Positions 43,598 to 64,000 of a stretch of DNA of 64,000 nt are shown here, one piece after another. Below the pieces are notes generated by a model, which saw nothing but the letters and a program-made list of their open reading frames with translations, made no database searches and was not told the DNA's origin. Both the position numbers and the translations under genes were made by a program. Source of the DNA: an uncultured Pseudomonadales bacterium (GTDB lineage Bacteria; Pseudomonadota; Gammaproteobacteria; Pseudomonadales; Porticoccaceae); contig OX044363.1 in the NCBI GenBank assembly GCA_943846685.1, positions 1,765,386 through 1,829,385 on the forward strand, given 5' to 3'. The stretch's first letter is position 1. The number at the start of each line of letters is the position of its first letter.

Positions 43598-43638
43598 TTG
43601 ATGACCATCAATTTTCTCAGGCGACTGTTACTTATAAT
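43598..43638 (+). promoter_or_regulatory. FNR-dependent class II promoter of hsp20
   Basis: Perfect TTGATGACCATCAA (43598-43611) and perfect TATAAT (43633-43638), box centre 28.5 bp from the -10. Confidence 0.85.
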
Positions 43639-43707
43639 TTTAGCTACAGCTTTGCAGGCAGCTTAAAAATTAATTTTCATCTAAACATATATAAAAGGAG
43701 ATTTAAG

Positions 43708-44163
43708 ATGAGTCTAATGTTGAGAGAACCCACCCAGATAATGAATCGATTTCAGGACGAATTTAATCATTTATTCCGCAACTTCGGCGAGAGATCTTCA
43801 ATATTTCCCGACGAGGACAGCAATGTGATTACCAGTGAGTGGATACCGACGGTTGATATAGTCGAAGACGAAAATGAGTTTGTTATCAGCGCGGATATTC
43901 CGGGAGTCAAGACCAAAGATATTGAGATCAGTATGAACGATGGCATTTTATCCATTAAGGGCGAACGACAAACGGAAAAAAGTGAAGAGCACAACGGTTA
44001 CTATCGCAGCGAGTGTTCCCATGGCACTTTTCATCGACGCTTTAGTCTTCCCGACTCTGCGGATCCCGAAAAAATAGTCGCCAAGGGTAAAGATGGGGTT
44101 TTGACAATCACCTTGGGCAAGCGTGAAATATCCAAGCCAAAACTCATTCGTATTCAGTCCTGA
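43708..44163 (+). CDS. small heat-shock protein (Hsp20/alpha-crystallin)
   Basis: WIPTVDI.E...ADIPGV..I.I..LSIKGER, G.F.RRF.LP, DGVLTI.L.K; AAGGAG RBS before the ATG at 43708. Confidence 0.93.
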   Translation: MSLMLREPTQIMNRFQDEFNHLFRNFGERSSIFPDEDSNVITSEWIPTVDIVEDENEFVISADIPGVKTKDIEISMNDGILSIKGERQTEKSEEHNGYYRSECSHGTFHRRFSLPDSADPEKIVAKGKDGVLTITLGKREISKPKLIRIQS

Positions 44164-44248
44164 TCTATTCTCTGGATAGGTTTAAAACCTCCGCTATACA
44201 AGGTAAAAAGTCCTCTGGCGGAGGTTTCCCCTTTTCTCAAAAACTGCT

Positions 44249-45718
44249 CTAACGCTGGGCAACCAGCAGTGACTTATACAGCTGAGCGTATTCTTTGGCG
44301 CTGCTCTCCCAGGAAAAATCCTCGCACATACCCGCGCGCTGCAAATCACGCCACAACAATCTGTTGCTGTAGACAAACTCCAGCCGTTGCAGGGCTTCAA
44401 CTAAGGCGCTGCTACTGTACTGCCAAAACAACACTCCCGTGGCATCGGCAATATCCTCTGAAAATGGCGGTATATCAATAATCGTATCCGCCAGCCCGCC
44501 TACACCCTGGGCGACCGGTATGGTGCCGTAACGCTGGGCGTACATCTGGGTTAGACCGCAGGGTTCATAGCGCGAGGGTATTAACAGCGCATCGGCACCA
44601 GCAATAACAAGGTGGGCGATTTTTTCGTCGTAACCCAGTTTGACCTCAATACGCGATGGATACTTTAATGCTGCCTGCTTAAAAGCTTTCTCCAGCTTCT
44701 GGTCACCGCTACCCAACAGCAGAATATCCACTGGCATCTGCATAATCAGTGGCAGAGCTTCGAGCAGCAGGTCGAACCCTTTCTGTGGGGTCAGGCGCGA
44801 GACTACACCGAGCACCAGACGCTCACTGTTGCGCGCATGAAAAAACGCTTCCTGCAGGGCTAATTTATTAAAAACTTTGCGATGCAGGCTGCTGGTTCCA
44901 TAGACCGTATCAATTAATTGATCGTTACCGGGATCCCACAATCGGTTATCAATGCCGTTGGCAATACCTGAAAAACGCGGCCCAATACTCTGCAAAAGCC
45001 CCTCGAGACCGCAGCCAAACTGTTCGGTTAACACCTCTCTTGCATAACCTGCACTTACCGTATTGACTGCATCAGAGAAAACAATAGCGGCTTTCATAAA
45101 CGACATCTGGCCATAAAACTCCACTGCCCGGTAATCCCAAAGGCGCTTGCCATCGACCATCTCAGGCAGCTTAAGGGCTTTAAACTCCTCTTCATCAAAC
45201 AGCCCCTGGTAGGCCAGGTTGTGAATCGTAAACAGGGTTCGCGGACGCGGTTTAGCGGTCGCCAGCAACAGCGGTACCAGCCCGGTATGCCAGTCATTGC
45301 AGTGGACTATATCCGGCTGCCAGGATTGGTCTGCCTGGTCCATGGCAATCAAGGTTACCATTCGGCAAAACAACGCGAAGCGTTTGGCGTTATCCGGCCA
45401 GCCATGCTCCCGGTCTTCACCATAGGGGCCTCCGGAGCGATCAAAAAGCTCAGGGCAATCGATTAAATAGACTGGAATAGCCGTGTTTTCCAGATTGATT
45501 TTTAACAGGCTAAGCCGATAGCCATCAATGCGCGTGCTGAACGCAACAACCGCTCTCAGATGACCTAGCTCGTTTAATAGGCTGCGATAGGCGGGTAGAA
45601 CAATGCGCACCTGATGTCCGAGACGACTCAGGGCAAGAGGCAGGTTATAGGCAACATCGGCAAGCCCGCCGGTTTTGATCAGTGGGTAGAGTTCGCTGCA
45701 GGCAAAGAGAATCTTCAC
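44249..45718 (-). CDS. glgA: glycogen synthase
   Basis: KTGGLADV, HCNDWHTG, TIHNLAYQG, SRLTPQKG, PSRYEPCGL.QM. Confidence 0.96.
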   Translation of the reverse strand: MKILFACSELYPLIKTGGLADVAYNLPLALSRLGHQVRIVLPAYRSLLNELGHLRAVVAFSTRIDGYRLSLLKINLENTAIPVYLIDCPELFDRSGGPYGEDREHGWPDNAKRFALFCRMVTLIAMDQADQSWQPDIVHCNDWHTGLVPLLLATAKPRPRTLFTIHNLAYQGLFDEEEFKALKLPEMVDGKRLWDYRAVEFYGQMSFMKAAIVFSDAVNTVSAGYAREVLTEQFGCGLEGLLQSIGPRFSGIANGIDNRLWDPGNDQLIDTVYGTSSLHRKVFNKLALQEAFFHARNSERLVLGVVSRLTPQKGFDLLLEALPLIMQMPVDILLLGSGDQKLEKAFKQAALKYPSRIEVKLGYDEKIAHLVIAGADALLIPSRYEPCGLTQMYAQRYGTIPVAQGVGGLADTIIDIPPFSEDIADATGVLFWQYSSSALVEALQRLEFVYSNRLLWRDLQRAGMCEDFSWESSAKEYAQLYKSLLVAQR

Positions 45719-45723
45719 TGTAC

Positions 45724-47943
45724 TCAGTCACCCACCCTGGTCAGCACAATTGCTGCCAGCGGCGGCAAGAGCATTATCAGGGAGTGCGGCTGCCCCATAC
45801 AGGCGACCGGCCGGGTTTTAAGCAGACCACTGTTGCCCATATTAGTGCCCGCGTAGAATTGAGAATCAGAATTAATCAGTTCCCGGTAAGTTCCGTTTTC
45901 GGGGACGCCGATGCAGTACTGATGGCGAGGCACAGGGGTAAAGTTAAGAACAACCAGAATCGATTCGCCGTCGGCTCTGCGCCTGTAAGAAAGGACCGAT
46001 TGCTGGCTGTCGTGACAGTCCAGCCAATGAAACCCCTGGGCATCGAAGTCGTACCCATAGAGCGCGGAATGGTGCTGGTAGAGATCATTGAGATCCTTGA
46101 TCAAGTGACTGATACCGCGATGCCTGTGCGAGCTTGGTTCAGAGAGCAGCTGCCAATCCAGTGCCTGATCACAGCGCCACTCCTGCCGCTGGGCAAATTC
46201 GCAGCCCATAAAAAGGCATTTTTTCCCCGGCCAGGTGTATAAAAAGACGTACAGCAATCTGAGGTTGGCAAATTTTTGCCAGTCGTCACCCGCCATCTTT
46301 TCAAGCAGGGATTTCTTGCCGTGGACAACTTCATCGTGAGAGAGCGCCAGCATAAAATTTTCATGGTGGGCATAGAGGGCACTAAAGGTTAAAAGCTGGT
46401 GATGGTAGCGGCGATGGATCGGGTCTTTGCCAAGATATTCAAGACTGTCATGCATCCAGCCCATATTCCATTTCATGGAAAATCCAAGACCGCCAATCCA
46501 GGTTGGCCGACTGACCTGGGGCCACTGGGTGGACTCTTCAGCAATCATCATAGCGCCGGGAAATTGTTCGTGGACAATTTCATTCAGCTGTCGAAGAAAG
46601 GCTATGGCATCGAGGTTTTCATTGCCACCAAATTGGTTTGGCAGCCATTCATTTTCACCGCGCGAGTAATCCAGGTAGATCATCGAGGCCACTGCATCCA
46701 CGCGCAGGCCGTCGATATGAAATTCCCTAAACCAATAGAGGGCATTGGCCAGTAAAAAATTCTTCACTTCGTTGCGGGCAAAATTAAATGTCAGCGTGCC
46801 CCAGTCGGGATGTTCTGCCAGGCGCGCATCGAAGTGTTCATAGAGGGGCGAACCATCAAACTGTGCAAGTCCATGTTCATCCTTTGGGAAATGCCCTGCT
46901 ACCCAGTCGACCAGAACACCGATCTTGTAACCATGGGCGCAATCGATAAAGTAGCGAAAATCATCCGCCGAACCAAATCTACTTGAAGGAGAATAGTAGC
47001 CTGTGCACTGGTAACCCCAGGATTCATCCAGCGGGTGTTCGGCAACAGGCATAAGCTCAATATGGGTAAAGCCGAGATCCTTTACGTAAGGCAGCAGTTG
47101 ATGAGCGAGCGCTCTCCAGCTGAGGAAGCTTCCGTTCTCATCGCGCCGCCAGGAGCCCACATGAAGTTCGTACACAGAGACTGGCTGGTGCTGCCAATCC
47201 CACTGGCGGCGCCTCTCCATCCACAGATGATCAGACCAGCTAAAAGTACTTTCAGCGCAGACAACAGAGGCATTTTCCGGTCGCAGTTGGGCGCTCTGGG
47301 CATAGGGATCGGCTTTTAGGGAGAGTTTGCTGGTGCCGCGCTGGGATATTTCGTATTTATACAGCACTTGCACACCGAGCCCGGGAATAAACAATTCCCA
47401 TACCCCGCTTCTGCCCCGGGAACGCATGGGATGACTACGACCATTCCAGTTATTGTGATCGCCAACCACACTGACACGCTCGGCCTCTGGCGCCCAGACG
47501 GCAAATAAAACACCGTTTATGTGATCGACTTTATGCAGATGGGCGCCGAGCTTTTGGTAGATATGCTGATGGCAGCCCTCCGCAAACAGATGTAAATCAA
47601 GGTCGCTCAGCTGTGGTGCAAAGCTGTAGGGATCACAGGAGTAATGACAGTTCCCCTCATAGTCCACCCAGCGGATCATATAATGTTTAGGCAACGCCTC
47701 GCTTCCGACCCATTCAAACAGATCAGTATTGCCAAGCCGCTGCATTGGCAGCGATGGATCTTCGATTGATGCGCTGCCCGCATTGGGCAACAGCACACAA
47801 ACTCGCCACTGATCATCAGCGATCCAGTGACGCCCCAAAACACTAAATGGATCGTGATGGCGCATCTCCAATAACCGCTGCAGCGGCTCGGTAATCTGCC
47901 CGCAAACTGCTGAACTGAGGTCGGGATTAATTTCTGGCTCCAT
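45724..47943 (-). CDS. glgB: 1,4-alpha-glucan branching enzyme (GH13)
   Basis: HHDPFSVLG, VWAPEA, YELHVGSW, WGYQ, DGLRVDAVASM, AEEST, SHDEVVHGK. Confidence 0.96.
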   Translation of the reverse strand: MEPEINPDLSSAVCGQITEPLQRLLEMRHHDPFSVLGRHWIADDQWRVCVLLPNAGSASIEDPSLPMQRLGNTDLFEWVGSEALPKHYMIRWVDYEGNCHYSCDPYSFAPQLSDLDLHLFAEGCHQHIYQKLGAHLHKVDHINGVLFAVWAPEAERVSVVGDHNNWNGRSHPMRSRGRSGVWELFIPGLGVQVLYKYEISQRGTSKLSLKADPYAQSAQLRPENASVVCAESTFSWSDHLWMERRRQWDWQHQPVSVYELHVGSWRRDENGSFLSWRALAHQLLPYVKDLGFTHIELMPVAEHPLDESWGYQCTGYYSPSSRFGSADDFRYFIDCAHGYKIGVLVDWVAGHFPKDEHGLAQFDGSPLYEHFDARLAEHPDWGTLTFNFARNEVKNFLLANALYWFREFHIDGLRVDAVASMIYLDYSRGENEWLPNQFGGNENLDAIAFLRQLNEIVHEQFPGAMMIAEESTQWPQVSRPTWIGGLGFSMKWNMGWMHDSLEYLGKDPIHRRYHHQLLTFSALYAHHENFMLALSHDEVVHGKKSLLEKMAGDDWQKFANLRLLYVFLYTWPGKKCLFMGCEFAQRQEWRCDQALDWQLLSEPSSHRHRGISHLIKDLNDLYQHHSALYGYDFDAQGFHWLDCHDSQQSVLSYRRRADGESILVVLNFTPVPRHQYCIGVPENGTYRELINSDSQFYAGTNMGNSGLLKTRPVACMGQPHSLIMLLPPLAAIVLTRVGD

Positions 47944-47970
47944 ATCAGAAGGATCACTAATAGCAGAACC

Positions 47971-48438
47971 TCAAACCGTCAATGGCATGGGTGCATGATG
48001 GCCAGTGACCGCCTTTAACATTCCCTCGGTGCGATAAAACGGCAGCTCTGCATCATCGGCGCTATTCGAGCGGGCGATAATATCACCAGAGGTGACAATA
48101 CCCGCCAGCTTGCCTTGACTGTTGACCACCGGAAGTCTGCGTACGCTGTGTTCACGCATTAAATCCAGCGCCTGCTCAATATCCGTCTCAGTTTCACATT
48201 TATACAGCTGCTGGCTATCGGTAATATCCCGAGCGTTTAACTCCCACAGCGGTTTCTTTTGCAGGGCTGCACCCATGGCTATATCGCGATCAGTAATCAT
48301 CGCAATGGGATTCTGTTGATCATCGACAACGGGCACTGCACCGCAGTCATTATTCCACATTGTCATGGCCACAGAATTTAATGGGGTGGTTGGTGAGCAG
48401 GTGTATACCTGACTCGTCATCATCTCTTTTACGTTCAT
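47971..48438 (-). CDS. tandem CBS-domain protein
   Basis: VKEMMT, GAVPVVD..ITDRDI, RRLPVV..GIVTSGDI. Confidence 0.9.
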   Translation of the reverse strand: MNVKEMMTSQVYTCSPTTPLNSVAMTMWNNDCGAVPVVDDQQNPIAMITDRDIAMGAALQKKPLWELNARDITDSQQLYKCETETDIEQALDLMREHSVRRLPVVNSQGKLAGIVTSGDIIARSNSADDAELPFYRTEGMLKAVTGHHAPMPLTV

Positions 48439-48514: not shown

Positions 48515-48528
48515 TTGATCGGGGTCAA
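48515..48528. promoter_or_regulatory. FNR-type box in the divergent CBS-glgB-glgA / glgC-GH57-malQ intergenic region
   Basis: TTGATCGGGGTCAA (9/10 to TTGAT-N4-ATCAA). Confidence 0.7.
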
Positions 48529-48615
48529 GATTACCAAGCCTGGTCGGTGGTCAAATTTTCCCTGTTGCCTGTGGTTAATTTCTAACCAGGAATAACTGAA
48601 AGGATTGCTAACACA

Positions 48616-49929
48616 ATGAATCAAATTGTGGTGGATAAGAACTGGTTGCCCGAAACAGTCCGCCAGGCGAGCAATAGTCGTTTTGTCAGTCGACTGACAA
48701 AGAACAGCCTGGCATTAATTCTTGCCGGCGGCTGCGGTTCGCGCCTCAATCAATTGACCCACTGGCGCGCCAAGCCTGCAGTGCCGTTTGGCGGTCAATT
48801 TAGAATTATTGATTTCACCCTGTCCAACTGCGTCAATTCAGGCATTCGCCGTATTGGTGTACTGACCCAGTACAAGGCACATTCGCTGATCAGGCATATT
48901 CAGCGTGGCTGGGGATTTTTACATGGGGATTTCGGTGAGTTTATCGAACTGCTGCCCGCCCAGCAGCGCCTTGAGAGCAGTTGGTATCTGGGCACGGCAG
49001 ATGCGGTGTACCAAAATATTGATATTTTGCGCAATCACAATCCCCGCTATGTGCTGATTTTGGCCGGGGACCATATTTATAAAATGGACTATGGGCCAAT
49101 GCTGGCTAAGCATGTGGAACAGGGCGCGAAACTGACCATTGGCTGTATTGAAATGCCCATGGACCAGGCCAGTGCTTTCGGGGTGATGGCGATTGATAAG
49201 GATGGGCGGGTCAGGGATTTCGTCGAAAAACCCGAACAGCCTAGCCCTATACCCGGCAGGCCAGACCGCGCATTGATCTCCATGGGTATTTATATCTTCG
49301 ACAGCCAGTTCCTGATCGATCAACTGATTGCGGATGCCGAGTGCCCGCAGTCGGGCCATGATTTTGGTGTCGATATTATTCCCTCCCTAATTCACAAACA
49401 CCCTGTTTATGCCTACGCCTTTCGCGATGCAGCGCAACAGCGGCAAGCCTATTGGCGGGATGTGGGCACGGTGGATGCCTACTGGCGCAGCAATCTTGAG
49501 TTGATCGGTGTGACCCCCGAACTCAACCTCTATGACCGCGAGTGGCCGATCTGGACCTGTCGCGAACAGACACCACCGGCAAAATTTGTCTTTGATGAAC
49601 CGGATCGTCGCGGTTTAGCCATAGATTCGATGGTCTCCGGCGGCTGCATTATCTCAGGCGCTAAAGTCAGGCATGCTCTGCTCTTTAACAATGTCACTGT
49701 AGATGAAGGCAGCAGCGTCGAAAACTCGGTGGTACTCCCAGAGGTGAGCATTGGCAAACAGTGCACAATCAACAACGCCGTTATCGACAAGGGCGCAATA
49801 ATTCCGGACCATATGGTTATCGGCGAAAATGCCCAAGAGGACGCCCGGCGCTTTTATGTCAGCCCCGGCGGTGTTGTTTTAGTAACCGCAGAAATGCTCG
49901 GTCAGGTGCTGCACCATGCCCCGAGATAA
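48616..49929 (+). CDS. glgC: ADP-glucose pyrophosphorylase
   Basis: LAGG.GSRL..RAKPAVPFGG, WYLGTADAVYQN, LAGDHIYKMDY, FVEKP, DFG.DII, YWRDVGT. Confidence 0.96.
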   Translation: MNQIVVDKNWLPETVRQASNSRFVSRLTKNSLALILAGGCGSRLNQLTHWRAKPAVPFGGQFRIIDFTLSNCVNSGIRRIGVLTQYKAHSLIRHIQRGWGFLHGDFGEFIELLPAQQRLESSWYLGTADAVYQNIDILRNHNPRYVLILAGDHIYKMDYGPMLAKHVEQGAKLTIGCIEMPMDQASAFGVMAIDKDGRVRDFVEKPEQPSPIPGRPDRALISMGIYIFDSQFLIDQLIADAECPQSGHDFGVDIIPSLIHKHPVYAYAFRDAAQQRQAYWRDVGTVDAYWRSNLELIGVTPELNLYDREWPIWTCREQTPPAKFVFDEPDRRGLAIDSMVSGGCIISGAKVRHALLFNNVTVDEGSSVENSVVLPEVSIGKQCTINNAVIDKGAIIPDHMVIGENAQEDARRFYVSPGGVVLVTAEMLGQVLHHAPR

Positions 49930-53198: not shown

Positions 53199-53212
53199 TT
53201 GACCCCTATCAA
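53199..53212 (+). promoter_or_regulatory. FNR-type box upstream of gap
   Basis: TTGACCCCTATCAA (9/10), 55 bp upstream of the ATG, within a 90-bp intergenic gap. Confidence 0.65.
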
Positions 53213-54298: not shown

Positions 54299-54348
54299 AA
54301 GAGCTCACAGCAAGGGAAGATTATGGGAAAAATTAATGGAGAAAAATT

Positions 54349-54954
54349 ATGTTAAAGGTATTTAGATTATCAATTATCGTTGGCCTTACTGCGCTTTTGC
54401 TGGGCAGCTGTGCATCGCGCCTGCAGAGTGATGTTGTCACTTTTCACGAGGGTCGGTTGCCGAAGGGCGAAACCATTCATATAGAATCGATAAATGCATT
54501 CGAAGAAGAGAGCCTTGAATTTAGTCATTACAAAAATTTAATCAGTGCCGAGCTTCGTCGTATTGGCTATGTCCCGGTCAAGGATGATCAGGCCGCCGAG
54601 TTAGTTGCGCAAATTGGTTACTCGGTAAGCGATGGTCAGACACAGATTCGCAGTAGTCAGCGCAACTACGTGCGCTATCATTTTTATCACGGCCACTACC
54701 ACAATCCTTTCTACTACGGCTTTTATAATGATTGGCCCCCTGAGTCATACAGTTATATTGTTTACAATCGACAGCTGCATATTAATATTTCCCGGAAGTC
54801 ACCAGAGCCAGAACTGCTATTTGAAGGGAGAGTGCAAAGTATCGGACGGGAAAAAGAGATCGCCTCGGTTATGCCCTATATGATTACCGCAATGTTTAAT
54901 AACTTTCCCGGTGAAAATGGGGTTACCAAGGTGGTGACTATTGAGAAGAAGTAG
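54349..54954 (+). CDS. lipoprotein, DUF4136-like
   Basis: Lipobox LLLGSC, aromatic/Tyr-rich central stretch, L.I.I..LFEG.V and M..AMF..FP C-terminal pattern. Confidence 0.7.
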   Translation: MLKVFRLSIIVGLTALLLGSCASRLQSDVVTFHEGRLPKGETIHIESINAFEEESLEFSHYKNLISAELRRIGYVPVKDDQAAELVAQIGYSVSDGQTQIRSSQRNYVRYHFYHGHYHNPFYYGFYNDWPPESYSYIVYNRQLHINISRKSPEPELLFEGRVQSIGREKEIASVMPYMITAMFNNFPGENGVTKVVTIEKK

Positions 54955-57561: not shown

Positions 57562-57607
57562 CGGAAAATTAACAGTGCAATCCAAGGGAGTATTTCTAGC
57601 ATTCCCC

Positions 57608-57648
57608 AATTTAAACAACGCTGCCGAAGTTAACTTGATCATTGTCAA
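57608..57648 (-). promoter_or_regulatory. FNR-type box with class II -10 for glgP1 (divergent from fixL-like gene)
   Basis: TTGATCATTGTCAA (57635-57648, 9/10); TAAATT on the minus strand at 57608-57613, 28.5 bp from the box centre. Confidence 0.72.
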
Positions 57649-57771: not shown

Positions 57772-59286
57772 ATGAATTATTTGGACTTGCCAAAGCCGGC
57801 TACTCTTATACTGGACGCTGGTGGAAATATTGAACATATCAGTAGCTCTACCTGTGAACTATTGGGGTACCAACCGGCCGAACTACAATCTCTCAATTGG
57901 ATAGATATCTGTGTTCCGCCCCTGTTCCAGATAAAAACCAAACGTATTTTTGATGCAGTTTTATCGGGCAAAAAAGATCTTCCCGACCAGATTATCTTCC
58001 CCGTCCTGAGTAAATCCGGCGATCAACATCTATTCTCCTGGCACAGTGAACCGCGCTTCGATGCCAGCGGCAGGGCCATTGGTTCTATTACTACCGGTAT
58101 AGCAATACCTGAGGACGCCGTTAAGCAAGAAAACTCTTACTTGCAGACCGCCGCTCGTAATCAGGCAGTACTGGATAATGCGATTGAGGCGATTATCAGC
58201 ACCAATAACCGCGGCATCATTACCCATGCCAACAAAACTACCGAGAGTATTCTCGGTTACAAACCAAATGAGTTGCTGGGCAAAAGGATTACCTGCCTGA
58301 TTCCTATGAATATTATTAGCGACTGCGCCAGGGAAATAAGATTCCATATGCAATCCACAGATACCAATACGGTTATCAACAGAGAAGTGGAAGCCAGACA
58401 TAAAGACGGCAGGAAAATCCCTGTCGAACTGACCGTCACCGAAATTACCATTGGTGGCACATTCAGCTTCACCGGCATTATGCGTGATATCAGTGAGCGC
58501 AAACTCAGCGAAGCGCGTTTAAAGAAAAGTAAGGAAGAGGTTCAGCAGGCCCGCGACCGCCTGACACAAATGGATCGGCTGCATCTCGCCAGCGAAATGT
58601 CTGCCGGACTTGCCCATGAGCTCAACCAGCCGTTAAGTGCAATTTCAATGTATGCCCAGGGCTGCCACAACTTGCTTAACAATAGTGAACTGGATCGACA
58701 TAAACTGAGTAATACCCTGCTGCGCATTGACACACAGGCACAGCGGGCTGGTGAAATTATTCGCAATATCAGGGCGCTGATGGAAAGACAGGAACTTCAT
58801 CATCAACTCACCGATATCAATACGCTTATTCGCAGCACAATTGAACTGGCCGAGGAAGATTATGAGTGCAGGGCAATCGATTTCGAATGTATTTTTTCAC
58901 ATTCCCTACCCCAGGTTGAAATTGTCTATGGACAGATACAGCAGGTATTACTGAATTTAATTCGCAACGCCTGTGACGCGATGATTGCTATTCCTGTCGA
59001 AGAAAAGTCCATCAGCATTATCAGCGAACAATATTCTGACAGTTTTATCAAAGTATCTGTCAGGGACAGGGGCAGCGGAATTGATATTCAGCATAGGGAT
59101 AAGATTTTTCAGAATTTTTTCTCAACAAAAAATAGTGGTATGGGTATGGGCCTGGCGATTAGCTATTCGATTATTACCAGTCATGGCGGAGTGATGGATA
59201 TTAACCCTGAATACTCGGATGGCGCTGAATTTTTCTTTACATTGCCAATCATGACCAACCTTAGGAAACCATCCCATGGAGAGTAA
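57772..59286 (+). CDS. fixL: FixL-like PAS-PAS histidine kinase
   Basis: Two PAS domains, RHKDG..IPVELTV.E..FTGIMRDISER, H-box LAHELNQPL, N-box QQVLLNLIRNA, G boxes DRGSG/GMGMGL. Confidence 0.78.
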   Translation: MNYLDLPKPATLILDAGGNIEHISSSTCELLGYQPAELQSLNWIDICVPPLFQIKTKRIFDAVLSGKKDLPDQIIFPVLSKSGDQHLFSWHSEPRFDASGRAIGSITTGIAIPEDAVKQENSYLQTAARNQAVLDNAIEAIISTNNRGIITHANKTTESILGYKPNELLGKRITCLIPMNIISDCAREIRFHMQSTDTNTVINREVEARHKDGRKIPVELTVTEITIGGTFSFTGIMRDISERKLSEARLKKSKEEVQQARDRLTQMDRLHLASEMSAGLAHELNQPLSAISMYAQGCHNLLNNSELDRHKLSNTLLRIDTQAQRAGEIIRNIRALMERQELHHQLTDINTLIRSTIELAEEDYECRAIDFECIFSHSLPQVEIVYGQIQQVLLNLIRNACDAMIAIPVEEKSISIISEQYSDSFIKVSVRDRGSGIDIQHRDKIFQNFFSTKNSGMGMGLAISYSIITSHGGVMDINPEYSDGAEFFFTLPIMTNLRKPSHGE

Positions 59287-59878
59287 AAATATCGTCTATA
59301 TTGTCGATGATGATCCCGATGTTTTAGACGCTACCTGTATGCTGCTGGAATCTACCGGGTTGGAAACACAACGCTTCAATTCCGCTATGTCCTTTCTCAA
59401 CAGTATTAACCAGAACTCTCAGGGTTGCATAGTACTGGACGTGCGTATGCCGAATATGAGCGGGCTAAAACTACAGAGCGAGATAATGCGTCGAGAAATA
59501 TGTTTACCGATAATATTTATCACCGGTCACGGCGATGTTCCCATGGCCGTTGAAGCCATGAAGAATGGTGCCCTGGAGTTTTTCCAAAAACCCTTTCGCG
59601 ACCAGGAGTTTATTGACTGCGTTTACGGCGCACTGGATATCAATCAACAGAGCCTCAACAACTTAAACCGTGTGCATTCAATACAGCGCCGAATAGCCAC
59701 CCTGACCAAACGTGAACAGCAGATTATGCAGTACATGACAGAGGGTCATATCACTAAGGTTATTGCCGATAAACTAGCCATAAGTCCACGCACAGTGGAA
59801 ACTCACAGGGCGCGGGTAATGGAAAAAATGCAGGCCAAAACCCTCGCCCAGTTAATTCATATGGTAATGGAAACATAG
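59276..59878 (+). CDS. fixJ: FixJ-like response regulator (REC + LuxR HTH)
   Basis: IVDDD, CIVLDVRMP, IIFITGHGDVPMAVEAMK.GA.EF..KPF, LTKRE..ISPRTVE.HRARVMEKM; overlaps the kinase stop. Confidence 0.9.
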   Translation: MESKNIVYIVDDDPDVLDATCMLLESTGLETQRFNSAMSFLNSINQNSQGCIVLDVRMPNMSGLKLQSEIMRREICLPIIFITGHGDVPMAVEAMKNGALEFFQKPFRDQEFIDCVYGALDINQQSLNNLNRVHSIQRRIATLTKREQQIMQYMTEGHITKVIADKLAISPRTVETHRARVMEKMQAKTLAQLIHMVMET

Positions 59879-59910: not shown

Positions 59911-60702
59911 CTACCCAATGCTACGGCAACTTAGCTGTTCACCGTAGCCCACTTTACTGCCGAGATATGCACCAGTAGCCATACTGTGCAAACCATCAAT
60001 ATCGACAATATGCAACCGGTGACGCTGGGCAACAATAAGCCCCTGCTCTTCCAGACGTTTGAACAAGCGACTTACCGTCTCTACTGCCAGACCGAGATAG
60101 TTGGCAATATCATAGCGAGCCATAGGCAATTTAAACTCATAGGGTGACTGGCGACGCTCATACATTGACTGGGATATATCGAGCAAAAAACTCGCCAGCC
60201 GCTGTTCAGCTCTAATCTTGGTTAAAGTCATCAACAGATGATTGGCTTTGGACATCATGCCGCTAACATTGCAAATTAATTCATCGTAGAGACCCCTGTT
60301 ATCGCGCAGGGAAACCTCTTTAAATAATTGAAAGGGCAGAGTACAAACACTGGAAGTTTCCAGCGCCTCTACCTCACGTATATGCCTGCCGGGATCAATG
60401 CCATCTATGCCAAGAATATCGTGTGAGAAATGAAATCCTGTAACCTGCCTCTCACCGGTTTCATCGGTAAAACAGGATTTAAATGAACCTGAACGAACTA
60501 GGTAAAGTGATTGAAATTTATCACCCTGAAGGAATAAATTCTGTCCTTTACGCATTGGTTTTTCATGCGTGACAAGACCCTCAACATTATTCGCTTCACT
60601 GTCGCTAAACACCCGCATAAGACATGACTTGCGAGTCTGGCAATGTCTACAAGATATCTTGTCTATATTACTTACGCTTATACCACTATTTATTAGCTTC
60701 AT
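59911..60702 (-). CDS. fnr: FNR-type Crp-family regulator with [4Fe-4S] ligands
   Basis: C18-x2-C21-x5-C27 plus central SSVC Cys; recognition helix LGLAVETVSR. Confidence 0.88.
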   Translation of the reverse strand: MKLINSGISVSNIDKISCRHCQTRKSCLMRVFSDSEANNVEGLVTHEKPMRKGQNLFLQGDKFQSLYLVRSGSFKSCFTDETGERQVTGFHFSHDILGIDGIDPGRHIREVEALETSSVCTLPFQLFKEVSLRDNRGLYDELICNVSGMMSKANHLLMTLTKIRAEQRLASFLLDISQSMYERRQSPYEFKLPMARYDIANYLGLAVETVSRLFKRLEEQGLIVAQRHRLHIVDIDGLHSMATGAYLGSKVGYGEQLSCRSIG

Positions 60703-60775
60703 GCTTACTCTCCCTTAACAATCCAATGTTATTTAATGATGGTTATGTAATACGCAAAAAAAAACCGCCCTCCAA

Positions 60776-61099
60776 TTAAGCGGCAAAGACACCAGAAGTA
60801 TTGAAATAATCCGGCCCATGTCCTTTTTCACCCGTCCACATAAGCCCCGCCCGATCATCTTCCGTCCATATAACCAGCGCACTCATACCAGAGTAATTCT
60901 TCATTTCACCCTTGCAGTTGGTCATTGCCTGTAAAAACATATCTTCTCTAAGGCAGCCGTGACAATTGCTGATACCAAAGCCGCTGACACCTATATTACT
61001 TATCGGAAAGGCACCTATCCTGACACCTGAAAGATACAGCTCAACAGTTGTGCTGGAATCCTTGCGATCCCCTATACGATGTTCCATATCGCCTCCCAT
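60776..61099 (-). CDS. stand-alone PilZ-like domain protein
   Basis: RIGDR (RxxxR) followed ~22 aa later by NIGVSG (variant of D/NxSxxG); C-terminal VIW..AGL.W. Confidence 0.6.
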   Translation of the reverse strand: MGGDMEHRIGDRKDSSTTVELYLSGVRIGAFPISNIGVSGFGISNCHGCLREDMFLQAMTNCKGEMKNYSGMSALVIWTEDDRAGLMWTGEKGHGPDYFNTSGVFAA

Positions 61100-61386
61100 A
61101 GCTATCCAGGATAGCTGTATAAATTTTCCACTTTACTCTGCATGATCAGTAGCAAAATATACAGCTCTGCAAGTTACTGATCTGAAGCCGGATTACAGAG
61201 AATAACAAAGCAAGGTAATACAACAATGGGGGAGTCTGCGTAATTTTTTGCGGGAACTACGTATAAAATGATTACAATTTTTTTCGTTTAATCTGGATAA
61301 CAGAATTTTGTTATTAAGTTCACACAAAATAAGTAGTTATCCTTATTTTTATTCCTCGAGCATCGTGTCAAAATTTACTCCAAATT

Positions 61387-61818: not shown

Positions 61819-61849
61819 CCTGCCACTCCCGGGAGGGAACCATTAGAAG

Positions 61850-61891
61850 TTGACCAATATCAACATCCAGCTGATTTGGATTATCTAGCCT
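61850..61891 (+). promoter_or_regulatory. FNR-type box with class II -10 for glgP2 and P-type ATPase
   Basis: TTGACCAATATCAA (61850-61863, 9/10); TAGCCT at 61886-61891, 29.5 bp from the box centre. Confidence 0.72.
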
Positions 61892-61962
61892 GTAAGATCA
61901 CCAATAATTACAAGCCCGGCTGATTAAAAGCCAGCTAAGTAAACAACAGCTGAGTAAAAAAT

Positions 61963-63660
61963 TTGATTGATCAAAATATCCGTATTGCCTACTTTAGTAT
62001 GGAGATAGCCCTGCACTCGAGTATGCCAACCTATGCCGGGGGTCTGGGAATACTCGCTGGCGATACACTGCACTCGGCAGCAGATATGCATGTCCCCATG
62101 GTGGGAATCTCACTGCTCCCCCGCCGCGGCTATTTTCAACAACAGCTGAGTGACGATGGCTGGCAAACCGAAAACAGCGTCAGCTGGACGGTAGAGGACT
62201 ATCTGCAGGAAGTGGGCCCGCGCACCGCAATTAGTATTGAGGGCCGCGAGGTGCATATCCGCGCCTGGAAATATCAACTCAACAGCCGCAATCAAAACAG
62301 CGTCGATATTTACTTTCTCGATACAGACCTGGAAGAAAACAGCGACTACGACCGTTCACTCGCCTATTTCCTCTATGGCGGTAACAGCCACTACCGGCTC
62401 TGCCAGGAAACTGTTCTGGGTATTGGCGGCGTGCGTATGCTCGCCGCACTGGGTTACAGCGGATTACAGCGCTACCACCTCAATGAGGGACATGCGAGCT
62501 TGTTGATTCTCGAATTACTCGAACAGAAGCGTCGCCAGAATCAGGGCAGTGATGATCCTGAAACTGTGCGCGATCTCTGTGTATTCACTACCCATACACC
62601 AGTGCCCTCAGGGCATGACCAGTTCCCCCTGAGTATGGTCTCCGACGTTCTTGGTGCGGAATATTCCCTGGCCGGCTGTGAGGATAATTTCTGTTTTGAC
62701 CACAAACTGAATATGACCTACCTCGCCCTCGCCAACAGTCGCTATATCAACGGGGTGGCAAAAAAACACAGTCAGTTATCGCGGCAAATGTATGCCGGCT
62801 ACTGTGTCGATTCTATTACCAATGGCGTGCATGCAGAGACATGGACATGTCAGCCCATGCAGCAATTGTTTGACCAGTATATTCCCGGCTGGCAACTCGA
62901 CAACCTGAGCTTGCGGGGAGCACTGAATATTCCCGTTGAGCCAATTCAAAAGGCACACCAGCTGGCAAAGAAAAACCTGTTAAATCATATTAACCAACTG
63001 CCCGGCACAACGCCTGAAAAACAGATGGAGGAGGATATTTTCACCATTGGTTTTGCCCGCCGGTCAACCCTCTACAAACGCCCGGATCTGTTTTTTACCG
63101 ACCTCAAGCGCCTGCAAGCTATTGGAGAGAAATTTGTTCGCCTGCAGATTATCTATGGGGGAAAGGCACATCCAAATGACAACCAGGGCAAGCTGCTTAT
63201 CCAAAAAATTATCTCTGTAGCCAACAGCCTCAATAAACATATCAATATTGTCTACCTAAATAACTACGATATCGCTCTGGCCAAACTGATGACCAGTGGC
63301 TGCGATCTCTGGCTGAACACCCCGCAGCCACCGATGGAGGCCTCTGGCACCAGTGGCATGAAGGCCGCCCTGAATGGCGTTCCCTCTCTAAGCACGATGG
63401 ATGGCTGGTGGCTGGAAGGCTGTATTGAGGGGTTAACCGGTTGGGGAATAGGCAACACAGCAGTTTCAACCACTTCGCCCCCACAGATAACTCAGGAGGC
63501 CTGCTCGCTGTACGACAAGCTGGAGCAGGTTATCCTGCCTCTCTACTACCAGAACCAGCCCGGCTACCTGGAGGTTATGCGTCACACCATTGCCCTGAAT
63601 GGCTCCTATTTCAACACTGAGCGAATGCTTAACCAGTATGTAACCAAGGCCTATTACTAA
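61963..63660 (+). CDS. glgP: alpha-glucan phosphorylase 2 (short GT35, 565 aa)
   Basis: AYFSMEI..TYAGGLG.LAGD, HLNEGH, TNGVH, GFARR..YKR, PLP-Lys EASGTSGMKAALNG. Confidence 0.93.
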   Translation: MIDQNIRIAYFSMEIALHSSMPTYAGGLGILAGDTLHSAADMHVPMVGISLLPRRGYFQQQLSDDGWQTENSVSWTVEDYLQEVGPRTAISIEGREVHIRAWKYQLNSRNQNSVDIYFLDTDLEENSDYDRSLAYFLYGGNSHYRLCQETVLGIGGVRMLAALGYSGLQRYHLNEGHASLLILELLEQKRRQNQGSDDPETVRDLCVFTTHTPVPSGHDQFPLSMVSDVLGAEYSLAGCEDNFCFDHKLNMTYLALANSRYINGVAKKHSQLSRQMYAGYCVDSITNGVHAETWTCQPMQQLFDQYIPGWQLDNLSLRGALNIPVEPIQKAHQLAKKNLLNHINQLPGTTPEKQMEEDIFTIGFARRSTLYKRPDLFFTDLKRLQAIGEKFVRLQIIYGGKAHPNDNQGKLLIQKIISVANSLNKHINIVYLNNYDIALAKLMTSGCDLWLNTPQPPMEASGTSGMKAALNGVPSLSTMDGWWLEGCIEGLTGWGIGNTAVSTTSPPQITQEACSLYDKLEQVILPLYYQNQPGYLEVMRHTIALNGSYFNTERMLNQYVTKAYY

Positions 63661-63679
63661 ATAAATTGCGGCATCTGAT

Positions 63680-64000
63680 ATGGATAATCAATGCAACTGG
63701 CACTGTCTGGAAAAGTCTGCGGTTATCAGCCAGCTGGACAGCGGATCCACTGGCCTAACCACCGCAGAAGCCCGACGCAGGCTTGAACTCCACGGCCCCA
63801 ACCTGTTGCCAGCAGCCAGGCCCAGTCCATTCTATCGGTTTTTCTTGCGCCAGTTTATCAGCCCATTTATCTATGTTTTGATCGTTGCCATGCTTATCTC
63901 ACTGCTGGTGGGCAATCTGGCCGACGCCGCTTTTATCGGGGTTATCCTGGTTGCCAACGCCACCATTGGAGCCCTGCAGGAATATCATGCGCAACGCAGT
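63680..64000 (+). CDS. cation-transporting P-type ATPase (type II), N-terminal part, runs off the window end
   Basis: Manual translation MDNQCNWH..GLTTAEARRRLELHGPN.LP..FLRQF.SPFIYVL..DAAFI..I.VANATIGALQEYHAQRS; open to the window end. Confidence 0.88.
   Translation, partial: MDNQCNWHCLEKSAVISQLDSGSTGLTTAEARRRLELHGPNLLPAARPSPFYRFFLRQFISPFIYVLIVAMLISLLVGNLADAAFIGVILVANATIGALQEYHAQRS

What the first reader, a model, noticed from the sequence alone, without database searches (positions are those of the whole stretch)
43598..64000. Self-contained low-oxygen glycogen island wired by five FNR boxes, with its own FNR and FixLJ-like regulators
Seen in sequence: TTGAT-N4-ATCAA-type sites lie in intergenic DNA in front of five transcription units of a ~20-kb block. 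They are at 43598 (perfect, hsp20), 48515 (divergent CBS-glgB-glgA / glgC-GH57-malQ), 53199 (gap-lipoprotein), 57635 (glgP1 / fixL) and 61850 (glgP2-ATPase). Three have a TAnnnT hexamer 28.5-29.5 bp from the box centre (TATAAT 43633, TAAATT 57608-13 minus, TAGCCT 61886), the class II -41.5 geometry. The same block encodes a Crp/FNR protein with the ETVSR recognition helix. Established: ETVSR-type FNR/FixK proteins bind this box, and rhizobial FixK regulons contain small HSPs, CBS proteins and P-type ATPases. Inference: glycogen synthesis and mobilisation (glgA/B/C, GH57, malQ, two glgP, gap) form one hypoxia-induced storage module with an in-cis O2-sensing cascade. I do not know of this being described as a unit.
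Basis: partly seen in the sequence, partly recalled or inferred. Interest (0 to 1): 0.88.

Follow-up and report, generated by a model that had tools for sequence, protein, structure and literature searches.

The report
FNR-wired glycogen cluster with FixLJ cascade
An uncultured marine gammaproteobacterium keeps its glycogen, glycolysis and stress-survival genes in one 20-kb cluster whose promoters all carry conserved binding sites for an oxygen-sensing FNR regulator encoded in the same cluster, and that regulator's own promoter carries a FixJ-type site: this predicts a low-oxygen survival programme, but no expression data support it yet.

Summary
All five TTGAT-N4-ATCAA boxes exist at the stated coordinates, all in non-coding DNA (5 in 1,548 nt against 0.088 expected, P = 4e-8). 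In seven to eight related lineages from metagenomes the cluster is syntenic. The boxes keep their positions while their N4 spacers and flanks drift. A -10-like hexamer starts +28.5 or +29.5 from the box centre in 27 of 31 instances, which is class II (-41.5) geometry. The cluster's Crp/FNR protein has all four Fe-S cysteine ligands and the ETVSR helix. New here: the promoter of the fnr operon (a PilZ-like small ORF plus fnr) carries a near-invariant element, TACGTAGTTCCCG, that matches published FixJ sites. This supports a FixLJ to fnr cascade like the rhizobial FixLJ to fixK cascade. Correction: in this clade the FixL-like kinase has Cys where FixL has its haem-ligating His, so oxygen sensing by the kinase is unsupported. 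More distant relatives keep the His. Oxygen-dependent expression could not be tested. I found no paper linking FNR or FixK to glycogen genes. Verdict: a real feature, a new variant of a known regulatory kind, of moderate to high interest.

The parts
43598..43611 (+). FNR box 1 (perfect TTGATGACCATCAA), hsp20 promoter. -10 TATAAT at 43633-43638 (+28.5). Predicted TSS about 43645.
   Evidence: Box and -10 conserved in L019, L020, L021.
43708..44163 (+). hsp20 (alpha-crystallin family small heat-shock protein, 151 aa)
   Evidence: Pfam HSP20 E = 5.8e-26. Orthologs are 151-153 aa.
44249..48438 (-). CBS-pair protein (47971-48438), glgB (45724-47943), glgA (44249-45718): one operon read leftward
   Evidence: Pfam CBS, CBM_48/Alpha-amylase/GlgB_N, Glyco_transf_5. 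Same order in L019-L022.
48515..48528 (.). FNR box 2, shared by two divergent promoters. glgC: extended -10 TGgTCAAAT (TG 48548-48549, hexamer 48551-48556, +29.5). CBS: GACTAT 48492-48487 on the minus strand (+29.5).
   Evidence: L021 and L022 have two separate boxes here.
48616..53176 (+). glgC (48616-49929), GH57 glucan enzyme (49916-51628), malQ 4-alpha-glucanotransferase (51629-53176)
   Evidence: Pfam NTP_transferase, Glyco_hydro_57, Glyco_hydro_77.
53199..53212 (+). FNR box 3, gap promoter. Extended -10 TGaTTTTAT (TG 53232-53233, hexamer 53235-53240, +29.5).
   Evidence: Conserved in 7 lineages including L016.
53267..54954 (+). gap (type I GAPDH, 53267-54298) and DUF4136 lipoprotein (54349-54954)
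   Evidence: NCBIfam TIGR01534 378.6 bits, above the 367.2 cut-off. Pfam DUF4136.
54985..57561 (-). glgP1, alpha-glucan phosphorylase with DUF3417 N-terminus (858 aa; true start ATG at 57561)
   Evidence: TIGR02094 758.7 bits. Ortholog lengths are 847-862 aa. Longer metagenome gene calls run over the box.
57635..57648 (-). FNR box 4, glgP1 promoter. -10 TAAATT at 57613-57608 (+28.5). No correctly spaced -10 toward the kinase gene.
57772..59878 (+). FixL-like PAS-PAS-HisKA-HATPase kinase (57772-59286) and FixJ-like REC-GerE response regulator (59276-59878), with overlapping reading frames
   Evidence: Pfam. PDB: FixL kinase core 4gcz E = 4.4e-46, haem-PAS 1dp6 E = 1.2e-10. BjFixJ 5xso E = 1.5e-44. 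NCBIfam best hits are FixL and FixJ, both below cut-off. Cys185 replaces the haem His.
59911..61087 (-). fnr operon: PilZ-like small ORF (60776-61087, 103 aa) followed by FNR (59911-60702, 263 aa)
   Evidence: FNR: four Cys ligands and ETVSR aligned to A. fischeri FNR 5cvr, E = 2.5e-46. Small ORF: conserved in six lineages, invariant RxxxR, Pfam PilZ hit in 2 of 6.
61199..61263 (-). fnr-operon promoter. FixJ-type site TACGTAGTTCCCG (61263-61251). Second repeat TACGCAG (61242-61236), 21 bp from the first. -35 TTGTTG (61226-61221). Extended -10 TGtTATTCT (61207-61199).
   Evidence: About 90 nt are near-invariant across lineages whose FNR is 62% identical. The motif is unique in the window and present once at the same place in orthologous loci. 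It matches the FixJ sites quoted in PMC4999443 and PMC13327599.
61387..61818 (+). single-domain pseudo-receiver (Glu in place of the phospho-acceptor Asp)
   Evidence: Pfam Response_reg. Alignment A4 against FixJ receivers.
61850..61863 (+). FNR box 5, glgP2-ATPase promoter. -10 TAGCCT at 61886-61891 (+29.5).
   Evidence: Conserved in L010, L012, L014.
61963..64000 (+). glgP2 (short alpha-glucan phosphorylase, 61963-63660) and the start of a P-type cation ATPase (63680 onward, runs off the window; 912 aa in L004)
   Evidence: TIGR02094 525 bits. ATPase domains in L004-L014. N-terminus translated.

Best explanation
The block is a conserved, co-regulated gene cluster under a two-tier cascade.

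Tier 1. A FixL-like PAS kinase phosphorylates a FixJ-like response regulator. That regulator binds a FixJ-type site (TACGTAGTTCCCG plus a second TACGCAG repeat 21 bp away), roughly 45-70 bp upstream of the predicted start of the PilZ-like-ORF-fnr operon, and raises FNR levels.

Tier 2. FNR carries the four cysteines that hold an O2-labile [4Fe-4S] cluster. When oxygen is low it dimerises and binds TTGAY-N4-RTCAA sites centred about 41.5 bp upstream of six transcription starts (class II activation). The six units are hsp20; CBS-glgB-glgA; glgC-GH57-malQ; gap-DUF4136; glgP1; and glgP2-P-type ATPase.

Outcome. Glycogen turnover enzymes, a dedicated GAPDH, a small chaperone, a CBS protein (a fold that commonly binds adenine nucleotides) and a cation pump are made together. 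An aerobic marine bacterium could then run maintenance metabolism on stored glucan during oxygen shortage.

Shown here by computation: the sites, their conservation and spacing, the regulators' diagnostic residues, and the FixJ-site match. Inferred: every binding event, the direction of regulation, the O2 signal, the physiological role, and what the kinase senses, since its canonical haem ligand is missing in this clade.
For: Enrichment: 5 boxes in 1,548 nt of intergenic DNA against 0.088 expected, P = 4e-8.

Footprinting: the boxes sit at the same promoters in L010/L019, L012, L014, L020, L021 and L022, and partly in L016-L018. TTGA and TCAA are fixed in all 31 tabulated boxes (one further glgP1-proximal site in L022 reads TTGAT-N4-ATAAA), while N4 and flanks vary.

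Geometry: a -10-like hexamer at +28.5 or +29.5 in 27 of 31 instances; other offsets give 0-6, mostly 0-2.

Synteny: the cluster is conserved while its left flank varies.

FNR: four Cys ligands and ET(V/L)SR are invariant in 34 subfamily members and align to A. fischeri FNR.

FixJ site: near-invariant, unique in the window, at the same place in orthologs. It matches the SELEX classes GTAMGTAG and GTAGTTTCCC and the S. meliloti fixK site TAAGTAATTTCCCTTA (PMC4999443), and GTACGTAG in the R. palustris fixK promoter (PMC13327599).

Response regulator: closest to FixJ, with the acceptor Asp present.

Distant relatives: the same FNR subfamily sits beside glgP, gap, glk, pgm, aldolase, transaldolase, PPS, hsp20, CBS and the ATPase, with boxes at several of them.
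Against: There are no expression or start-site data. The metatranscriptome contigs are flat and cross intergenic DNA.

The kinase lacks the FixL proximal His in this clade.

FNR, FixL and FixJ all score below the NCBIfam family cut-offs, so DNA specificity and ligand are extrapolated.

Co-induction of synthesis (glgA, glgB, glgC) and breakdown (glgP1, glgP2, malQ) leaves the net direction of flux undefined.

A second FNR-family protein elsewhere in the genome could share the boxes; only 64 kb is visible.

The 31 promoter instances are phylogenetically related, not independent.
Confidence: 0.72

Rival explanations
1. The boxes are real Crp/FNR-family sites, but a different family member encoded elsewhere mainly uses them: a housekeeping Anr/FNR, or an NO-responsive Dnr/NnrR type. 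The signal would then be general anaerobiosis or nitric oxide, and the cis-encoded FNR would be only one of several inputs.
For: TTGAT-N4-ATCAA is shared by FNR, FixK and NnrR-type regulators (PMC5596199). The cis-encoded protein is a divergent FNR: 187 bits against the 228 cut-off, and only about 40% identical to named FNRs. That is compatible with it being an extra paralog. Only 64 kb of the genome is visible.
Against: This FNR subfamily co-occurs with glgP, gap, hsp20 and CBS genes across lineages down to 49% identity, even where gene order is reshuffled. That pattern is typical of a dedicated regulator. It has the complete O2-sensing cysteine set, not the Dnr/NnrR type.
Confidence: 0.15
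2. The cascade is gated mainly by a signal other than oxygen (redox state, energy charge, c-di-GMP or a metabolite). That signal would be sensed by the modified PAS kinase, the PilZ-like protein or the pseudo-receiver. FNR's oxygen sensitivity would be secondary.
For: The haem-ligating His is replaced by Cys185 (no His at all in L020), and the Arg206 position is Phe. A PilZ-like ORF is co-transcribed with fnr in all lineages. A conserved pseudo-receiver lies next to it. A CBS protein, whose fold commonly binds adenine nucleotides, heads the glgBA operon.
Against: The FNR cysteine ligands are invariant, which argues for continued selection on the Fe-S sensor. Distant relatives keep a canonical FixL haem pocket, so the ancestral logic was O2 sensing at both tiers.
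Confidence: 0.1
3. The boxes are chance matches or non-functional remnants, and the genes are clustered for metabolic reasons only.
For: Single 10-of-10 or 9-of-10 matches do occur by chance (3.6 expected per window). Several such matches in coding DNA here are probably meaningless (59634, 61519, 43359).
Against: P = 4e-8 for the intergenic cluster. Positional conservation with drifting spacers in at least 6 lineages. A fixed -10 offset.
Confidence: 0.01

Closest known systems
Rhizobial and Caulobacter FixLJ-FixK cascade
   Same: A PAS kinase and a REC-GerE regulator are encoded next to a Crp/FNR-family gene whose promoter carries a FixJ-type site (TA[A/C]GTAGTTTCC; PMC4999443, PMC13327599). 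The downstream regulon is wired by TTGAT-N4-ATCAA boxes. A single-domain receiver lies nearby, which recalls Caulobacter FixT (own knowledge).
   Different: The host is a marine gammaproteobacterium. The FixJ target is a true FNR with the Fe-S cysteines rather than a cysteine-free FixK. The kinase in this clade lacks the haem His (Cys185). The regulon in view is glycogen and glycolysis rather than cbb3 oxidase or nitrogen fixation. A PilZ-like ORF is co-transcribed with the regulator.
E. coli / Aliivibrio FNR and Pseudomonas Anr class II promoters
   Same: Four Cys ligands, an E--SR recognition helix, a TTGAT-N4-ATCAA site centred about -41.5, and weak or absent -35 elements.
   Different: The protein is about 40% identical and scores below the NCBIfam Fnr cut-off. 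It is placed under a two-component system. The visible targets form one contiguous cluster rather than a dispersed respiratory regulon.
FNR-family control of PHB storage (CydR in Azotobacter vinelandii, Anr in Pseudomonas extremaustralis and P. chlororaphis)
   Same: An oxygen-responsive FNR-type regulator controls genes for a carbon-storage polymer in aerobic bacteria (PMC9049629).
   Different: The polymer there is PHB, not glycogen. There are one or two target promoters rather than six. CydR acts negatively. No dedicated local regulator cascade is involved.
Mycobacterium tuberculosis DosR (DevR) hypoxia/dormancy regulon
   Same: The content is parallel: an alpha-crystallin Hsp20 (hspX), a P-type cation ATPase (ctpF) and a small stand-alone protein, Rv2626c (PMC3177182), which is a CBS-pair protein by my own knowledge. 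It also has a GerE-type response regulator with PAS/GAF kinases and storage-compound genes (tgs1).
   Different: The DNA motif and master regulator are unrelated (DosR boxes, no FNR). The storage compound there is triacylglycerol. The resemblance is analogy or convergence, not homology of the circuit.
E. coli glgBXCAP regulation
   Same: Synthesis and degradation genes for glycogen are co-transcribed, and a Crp-family protein takes part (cAMP-CRP; references cited within PMC3424579).
   Different: CRP recognises TGTGA-N6-TCACA and reports carbon status, not oxygen. There is no FixLJ tier and no linked hsp20, CBS or ATPase.

Membership tests
FNR (O2-sensing [4Fe-4S] Crp/FNR regulators) | N-terminal C-X2-C-X5-C plus one central Cys as cluster ligands | tested here: met
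   C18, C21, C27 and C120 align with the ligands of A. fischeri FNR 5cvr. They are invariant in 34 homologs.
FNR (O2-sensing [4Fe-4S] Crp/FNR regulators) | E--SR DNA-recognition helix, with cNMP-like and HTH_Crp_2 domains | tested here: met
   ETVSR at 208-212. Pfam cNMP_binding, HTH_Crp_2 and Crp.
FNR (O2-sensing [4Fe-4S] Crp/FNR regulators) | Score above the curated NCBIfam Fnr cut-off | tested here: not met
   NF008365: 187.2 bits against a cut-off of 228. This is a divergent subfamily; PGAP names the P. hydrocarbonicus homolog only 'helix-turn-helix domain-containing protein'.
FNR (O2-sensing [4Fe-4S] Crp/FNR regulators) | O2-labile cluster and O2-dependent DNA binding | not testable with these tools
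   Needs anaerobic reconstitution and EMSA.
Class II FNR-dependent promoter | TTGAT-N4-ATCAA-type site upstream of a -10 element, at the spacing that puts the site centre near -41.5 | tested here: met
   A -10-like hexamer at +28.5 or +29.5 in 27 of 31 instances across 6 promoters and 4-7 lineages.
Class II FNR-dependent promoter | Mapped transcription start 41.5 bp from the site centre, and FNR-dependent activity | tested here: inconclusive
   Metatranscriptome contigs span intergenic DNA at flat depth and show no ends at promoters.
FixL (haem-PAS oxygen-sensor kinase) | PAS-HisKA-HATPase architecture with a FixL-like kinase core and PAS-B | tested here: met
   Pfam. 4gcz E = 4.4e-46, 1dp6 E = 1.2e-10. 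The best NCBIfam hit is FixL, but at 242 bits against a cut-off of 850.
FixL (haem-PAS oxygen-sensor kinase) | Proximal haem ligand (BjFixL His200) and Arg206 | tested here: not met
   Cys185 and Phe191 occupy these positions in the window, L010 and L012. L020 has no His. L016 and L017 keep RSRHDGYIKRF and GQHDHYIKRY.
FixJ (REC-GerE response regulator activating a Crp/FNR-family gene) | REC domain with acceptor Asp plus a GerE HTH, closest to FixJ | tested here: met
   Pfam. BjFixJ 5xso E = 1.5e-44. Asp in 'VLDVRMP'. NCBIfam FixJ 227.9 bits, just under the 255 cut-off.
FixJ (REC-GerE response regulator activating a Crp/FNR-family gene) | FixJ-type binding site upstream of the linked fnr/fixK-family gene | tested here: met
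   TACGTAGTTCCCG at 61263-61251(-) is unique in the window and conserved in orthologs. It matches GTAMGTAG, GTAGTTTCCC and TAAGTAATTTCCCTTA (PMC4999443) and GTACGTAG (PMC13327599). Binding itself was not tested.
Horizontally acquired genomic island | Compositional break, integrase or transposase, and a flanking tRNA or direct repeats | tested here: not met
   GC is 0.41-0.53 in the block against 0.39-0.52 elsewhere, with no step at 43.5 kb. The tRNAs are at 240 and 34974 only. No mobility genes lie in the block. The left flank varies between relatives, but the right flank (ATP-grasp, transglutaminase-like, SecDF) is conserved.
PilZ (c-di-GMP receptor) - small ORF upstream of fnr | RxxxR and [D/N]xSxxG motifs, and a Pfam PilZ match | tested here: inconclusive
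   Invariant R8 and R12 (RxxxR) and I-G-x-S-G. Pfam PilZ matches only 2 of 6 orthologs (best E = 1.4e-05), not the window copy.

The most novel reading that the evidence does not exclude
Abundant uncultured marine Gammaproteobacteria, and at least one cultured Cellvibrionales relative, run a dedicated hypoxic-persistence programme fuelled by glycogen. It would be controlled by a hybrid FixLJ-to-FNR feed-forward cascade: two sensors in series, with a true Fe-S FNR in place of FixK. Its output (Hsp20, CBS protein, P-type ATPase, storage-polymer and glycolytic enzymes) converges on the mycobacterial DosR dormancy regulon. In the window's clade the FixL haem histidine has been replaced by cysteine, so the upper sensor may have acquired a new chemistry (thiolate-ligated haem or a thiol redox switch). 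The co-transcribed PilZ-like protein may couple FNR to c-di-GMP.
Probability: 0.3. Interest if true: 0.78.

Novelty: new variant of a known kind. Interest (0 to 1): 0.62.

Why it matters
Glycogen is a known anoxic energy reserve in several bacteria, but I found no paper that ties its genes transcriptionally to an oxygen sensor. Within the searched literature, FNR-family control of storage is documented for PHB only.

The organism is common in marine metagenomes: its FNR protein is indexed in 92 blocks of the assembly collection, and the block sits at 60-180x contig depth in four metatranscriptome runs. A hard-wired low-oxygen programme based on glycogen would explain how aerobic heterotrophs persist in the low-oxygen microzones of particles and blooms. 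That ecological reading is my inference.

The circuit also extends the FixLJ-FixK design outside the Alphaproteobacteria and Betaproteobacteria, with a true FNR as the FixJ target. It provides six compact natural promoters with an unusually clean class II architecture. It also shows a natural series of FixL variants, some with the haem ligand and some without, that could be used to study sensor evolution.

Tried and rejected
1. A genome-contig scan with MalQ found only relatives at 41-51% identity in other phyla and no ortholog locus.

2. I tried mapping starts and expression with four marine metatranscriptomes. The contigs cover the whole block, both strands and the intergenic DNA at flat depth, so they give no start sites and no condition contrast.

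3. An organism name could not be obtained. Cluster look-ups returned no taxon. The nearest named carrier of the FNR subfamily is Pseudomaricurvus (Aestuariicella) hydrocarbonicus at 49% identity.

4. Literature searches for FNR, Anr or FixK together with glycogen returned nothing that links them. The S. meliloti paper links FixK-type motifs to PHB mutants and explicitly not to the glgA1 mutant.

5. 'FixJ box' as a phrase found no papers. The consensus came from PMC4999443 and PMC13327599.

6. I considered CRP-type control, as for E. coli glg genes, and rejected it: the motif core is TTGA/TCAA, the helix is ETVSR, and the Fe-S cysteines are present.

7. I considered whether the 57635 box also drives the kinase operon. 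There is no -10 at the right offset on that strand (sequence), although L020 has a separate weaker box near its kinase gene.

8. Box-like hits inside genes (43359, 59634, 61519 and four others) and the hit at 1499 (a terminator hairpin) were set aside as chance.

9. Rfam found only two tRNAs in the window and no riboswitch or sRNA in the block.

Full report
OBSERVATION. The window holds 12 matches with at most one mismatch against 3.63 expected, and none of 100 dinucleotide shuffles reaches 12. With a gene mask, the five sites fall in the 1,548 nt of non-coding DNA in 43401-64000, where 0.088 are expected (Poisson P = 4e-8; Fisher test of intergenic against coding DNA within the block, P = 4e-5). 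The remaining 5,774 nt of intergenic DNA in the window contain one match, at 1499, which is the stem-loop of a terminator between convergent genes. The other six matches are inside coding regions, and I treat them as chance.

GENES. Pfam and NCBIfam confirm every gene call.
- hsp20: 43708-44163 (+).
- CBS-glgB-glgA: 48438-44249 (-).
- glgC-GH57-malQ: 48616-53176 (+).
- gap-DUF4136: 53267-54954 (+).
- glgP1: 57561-54985 (-), a DUF3417-type alpha-glucan phosphorylase. Ortholog lengths of 847-862 aa fix the start at 57561; longer metagenome gene calls run over the box.
- PAS-PAS-HisKA-HATPase kinase and REC-GerE regulator: 57772-59878 (+).
- A 103-aa ORF plus the Crp/FNR protein: 61087-59911 (-).
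- Single-domain receiver: 61387-61818 (+).
- glgP2: 61963-63660 (+), followed from 63680 by a P-type cation ATPase that runs off the window.

RELATIVES. The species-representative genome set gave no ortholog. Exact and homolog look-ups in metagenome assemblies did. The window's FNR sequence is indexed in 92 blocks of the assembly collection (22 contigs were read). The identifiable sources are marine. The whole block, in the same order, is found in lineages with 86%, 81% and 62% FNR identity (L010/L019, L012, L014) and 78%, 75% and 72% GlgC identity (L020, L021, L022). The right flank (ATP-grasp, transglutaminase-like, SecDF) is shared. The left flank differs: BCKDH and LeuDH in the window and L019, FTR1 in L020, PPS and aldolase in L021, ArgG in L022. 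At 49-55% FNR identity the order is reshuffled, but the same FNR subfamily still sits beside glgP, gap, DUF4136, the kinase-regulator pair, CBS, hsp20 and the ATPase. New neighbours there are glucokinase, phosphoglucomutase, transaldolase, PPS/PPDK, class I aldolase and an ADP-forming acetyl-CoA synthetase domain protein (L016, L017, and L018 = Pseudomaricurvus hydrocarbonicus). The block shows no compositional step, integrase or flanking tRNA. It is a conserved gene cluster, not a demonstrable mobile island.

FOOTPRINTING. In every relative whose fetched DNA covers the region, a box lies at the same promoter, with three exceptions: L016 has none at CBS, L017 none at gap, and L018 none at glgP1. 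Distances to the start codon are about 102 nt for hsp20 (190 in L020), about 72-84 nt for CBS, about 62-105 nt for gap, about 60-81 nt for glgP1 (114 in L022) and about 40-107 nt for glgP2. The half-site cores TTGA and TCAA are identical in all 31 tabulated boxes (one further glgP1-proximal site in L022 reads TTGAT-N4-ATAAA), whereas the N4 spacer and the flanks differ between lineages. The effective consensus is TTGAY-N4-RTCAA. L021 and L022 have two boxes in the CBS/glgC intergenic region, one per promoter; the window has one shared box. Additional boxes with the same geometry precede transaldolase (L016), a DeoC-type aldolase (L021), and hsp20 and CBS in P. hydrocarbonicus.

PROMOTER GEOMETRY. 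I aligned 31 box-promoter instances on the box. A -10-like hexamer (T at position 1, T at 6, A at 2 or 5) starts at +28.5 (11 instances) or +29.5 (16 instances) from the box centre. All other offsets from 11.5 to 54.5 score 0-6, mostly 0-2. In addition, glgC has TGgTCAAAT and gap has TGaTTTTAT at +29.5. Both have the TGn extension, conserved as TGnTnnnAT in most lineages. CBS has the weaker GACTAT. With a -10 at -12 to -7, this spacing puts the box centre at about -41.5, which is the class II activation position. The instances are phylogenetically related, so the count is not a probability. The pattern nevertheless recurs at six different promoters whose surrounding sequence is unrelated.

THE FNR. 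The 263-aa protein aligns over its full length with Aliivibrio fischeri FNR (5cvr, E = 2.5e-46). C18, C21, C27 and C120 fall on the four cluster ligands, and ETVSR falls on the ETISR recognition helix. All four cysteines and the ET(V/L)SR helix are invariant in 34 homologs spanning 39-99% identity. The protein scores below the NCBIfam Fnr cut-off (187 against 228 bits), so it belongs to a divergent subfamily. Whether the genome has a second, housekeeping FNR cannot be seen from 64 kb.

THE KINASE AND REGULATOR. The kinase core is closest to Bradyrhizobium FixL (4gcz chimera, E = 4.4e-46). Its second PAS domain is closest to the FixL haem-PAS (1dp6, E = 1.2e-10). In the alignment, BjFixL His200 (the proximal haem ligand) corresponds to Cys185 and Arg206 to Phe191 in the window, L010 and L012. 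L020 has no His in the segment, and L014 has one displaced by a residue. L016 and L017 retain the canonical RSRHDGYIKRF and GQHDHYIKRY. The ancestral protein was therefore a canonical FixL by sequence, but the window's clade fails this defining feature. Its ligand is unknown. The regulator is closest to FixJ (NCBIfam 227.9 bits against a cut-off of 255; BjFixJ 5xso E = 1.5e-44) and has the acceptor Asp.

A FixJ SITE AT THE fnr OPERON. Upstream of the 103-aa ORF that precedes fnr, about 90 nt are almost invariant between lineages whose FNR proteins are only 62% identical. On the minus strand the block reads ATACGTAGTTCCCGCAAAAAATTACGCAGACTCCCCCATTGTTGTATTACCTTGCTTTGTTATTCTCT. Its parts are two TACG(T/C)AG repeats 21 bp apart (61263-61257 and 61242-61236), then TTGTTG (61226-61221), 16 nt (13 before the TGt extension), and TGtTATTCT (61207-61199). 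PMC4999443 quotes the SELEX-derived FixJ site classes GTAMGTAG and GTAGTTTCCC (Ferrieres and Kahn 2002) and the S. meliloti fixK site TAAGTAATTTCCCTTA. PMC13327599 reports GTACGTAG in the FixJ-bound fixK promoter of R. palustris. The element here is the two SELEX classes fused: TACGTAGTT(C/T)CCG, or TAAGTAGTTTCCG in L014. TAMGTAGTTYCC occurs once in the 64-kb window, at this promoter. It occurs once at the same place in each of L004-L011, L014 and L015; L012 differs by one base. With the predicted -10, the element spans roughly -71 to -44, similar to the -69 to -44 FixJ footprint quoted for S. meliloti fixK. Related TACGTAG-type elements precede the same operon in L016, L017 and L018. I infer a FixLJ to fnr step analogous to FixLJ to fixK. 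Binding was not tested.

ACCESSORY PROTEINS. The 103-aa ORF is conserved in six lineages, with an invariant RxxxR and an I-G-x-S-G motif. Two orthologs hit Pfam PilZ (best E = 1.4e-05), but the window copy does not. The single-domain receiver has Glu at the phospho-acceptor position and lacks the conserved Thr in all four lineages, so it is a pseudo-receiver. From my own knowledge, its location next to the cascade recalls the single-domain receiver FixT, which feeds back on FixL in Caulobacter. That is a lead, not a result.

MECHANISM. Step 1 (inferred): the kinase phosphorylates the FixJ-like regulator in response to a signal that was O2 ancestrally and is unknown in this clade. Step 2 (supported by the motif): the regulator activates the PilZ-like-fnr operon. 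Step 3 (supported by diagnostic residues): FNR assembles its cluster and dimerises when O2 is low. Step 4 (supported by enrichment, footprinting and geometry): FNR activates six class II promoters. Step 5 (inferred): the products allow glucan turnover feeding glycolysis through a dedicated GAPDH, together with a chaperone, a CBS protein (a fold that commonly binds adenine nucleotides) and a cation pump, for maintenance during oxygen shortage. Synthesis and breakdown genes are co-induced, as in the E. coli glg operon. The direction of flux would therefore be set post-translationally, which is a further inference.

EXPRESSION. Four marine metatranscriptome runs contain the entire block at 60-180x contig depth. 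The contigs are 2-23 kb long, cross divergent intergenic regions and show no ends at promoters. They prove presence, not regulation. This is the main gap.

KNOWN WORK. Full-text searches combining FNR, Anr or FixK with glycogen found no report of such control. Two sets of precedents are documented. FNR-family regulators control PHB storage: CydR negatively in A. vinelandii, and Anr positively in Pseudomonas extremaustralis and P. chlororaphis (PMC9049629). The DosR hypoxia regulon of M. tuberculosis contains hspX, ctpF and Rv2626c (PMC3177182), which parallels the Hsp20, P-type ATPase and CBS trio here. The library does not include most subscription journals, so absence of a report is not proof of novelty.

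VERDICT. It needs correction in three places: six promoters rather than five, the 57635 box serves glgP1 only, and the kinase is not a demonstrable O2 sensor in this clade. It is strengthened by one new finding, the FixJ-type site at the fnr operon. It is a new variant of a known regulatory kind. Interest is 0.62.

Noticed in passing
window 60776-61087 (-): A conserved 103-aa ORF is co-transcribed upstream of fnr in all six lineages examined. It has an invariant RxxxR and an I-G-x-S-G motif. Two orthologs hit Pfam PilZ (best E = 1.4e-05), which suggests a c-di-GMP-binding partner of the FNR cascade.
   Followed up: partly
window 61387-61818 (+): This single-domain receiver has Glu at the phospho-acceptor Asp position and has lost the conserved Thr in all four lineages, so it is a pseudo-receiver. 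Its position next to the FixLJ-FNR genes recalls Caulobacter FixT (own knowledge).
   Followed up: partly
window 57772-59286 (+), residues 178-192: In the FixL-like kinase, the position of the haem-ligating His200 of BjFixL is Cys185, and the Arg206 position is Phe191. The change is shared by L010 and L012. L020 has no His in the segment. L016 and L017 keep the canonical pocket. This is a natural series of FixL variants with and without the haem ligand.
   Followed up: yes
window about 1550-27100 (-): A long same-strand, low-GC (0.39-0.46 up to about 18 kb) polysaccharide synthesis and export cluster. It includes a MatE-type flippase, a sulfotransferase, several glycosyltransferases, GDP-mannose 4,6-dehydratase and a Wza-like exporter with SLBB domains, so the product may be a sulfated exopolysaccharide.
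   Followed up: partly
window 1499-1512: The only FNR-box-like match in intergenic DNA outside the block sits in the hairpin of an intrinsic-terminator-like structure (aaaaaaggcataTTGATTAATACCAAtatgccttttttatt) between convergent genes. It is not a promoter site.
   Followed up: yes
window 32143-34119 (-) and 36058-37959 (-): A 658-aa ORF has no Pfam match at E <= 1e-10, and a 633-aa protein has a eukaryotic-type Ser/Thr protein kinase domain. They flank a tRNA-Leu (34974-35060) and about 2 kb without long ORFs.
   Followed up: no
L021 6511-6972 and L022 6572-7048: The relatives carry a Host_attach / baeRF-like (release-factor-like) gene inserted between glgA and glgB. It is absent from the window and from L019 and L020.
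   Followed up: no
L017 3513-8895: In one distant relative the FNR neighbourhood holds an IS element (transposase and rve integrase), an ADP-forming acetyl-CoA synthetase/acetyltransferase fusion and a histone-deacetylase-family protein. This is compatible with acetate-forming substrate-level phosphorylation being linked to the module.
   Followed up: no
window 57562-57837; L004-L008: Automatic gene calls for glgP1 in public metagenomes (885 or 950 aa) extend upstream across the FNR box and the -10. Ortholog lengths (847-862 aa) and the conserved promoter show that the start is the ATG at 57561.
   Followed up: yes
window 41732-43460: An Lrp/AsnC regulator, a Leu/Val-type amino-acid dehydrogenase and the branched-chain keto-acid dehydrogenase E1/E2 genes lie directly left of the block in the window and in L019 only. 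The ORF frames of the Lrp gene and the dehydrogenase gene overlap at their 3' ends as listed.
   Followed up: no
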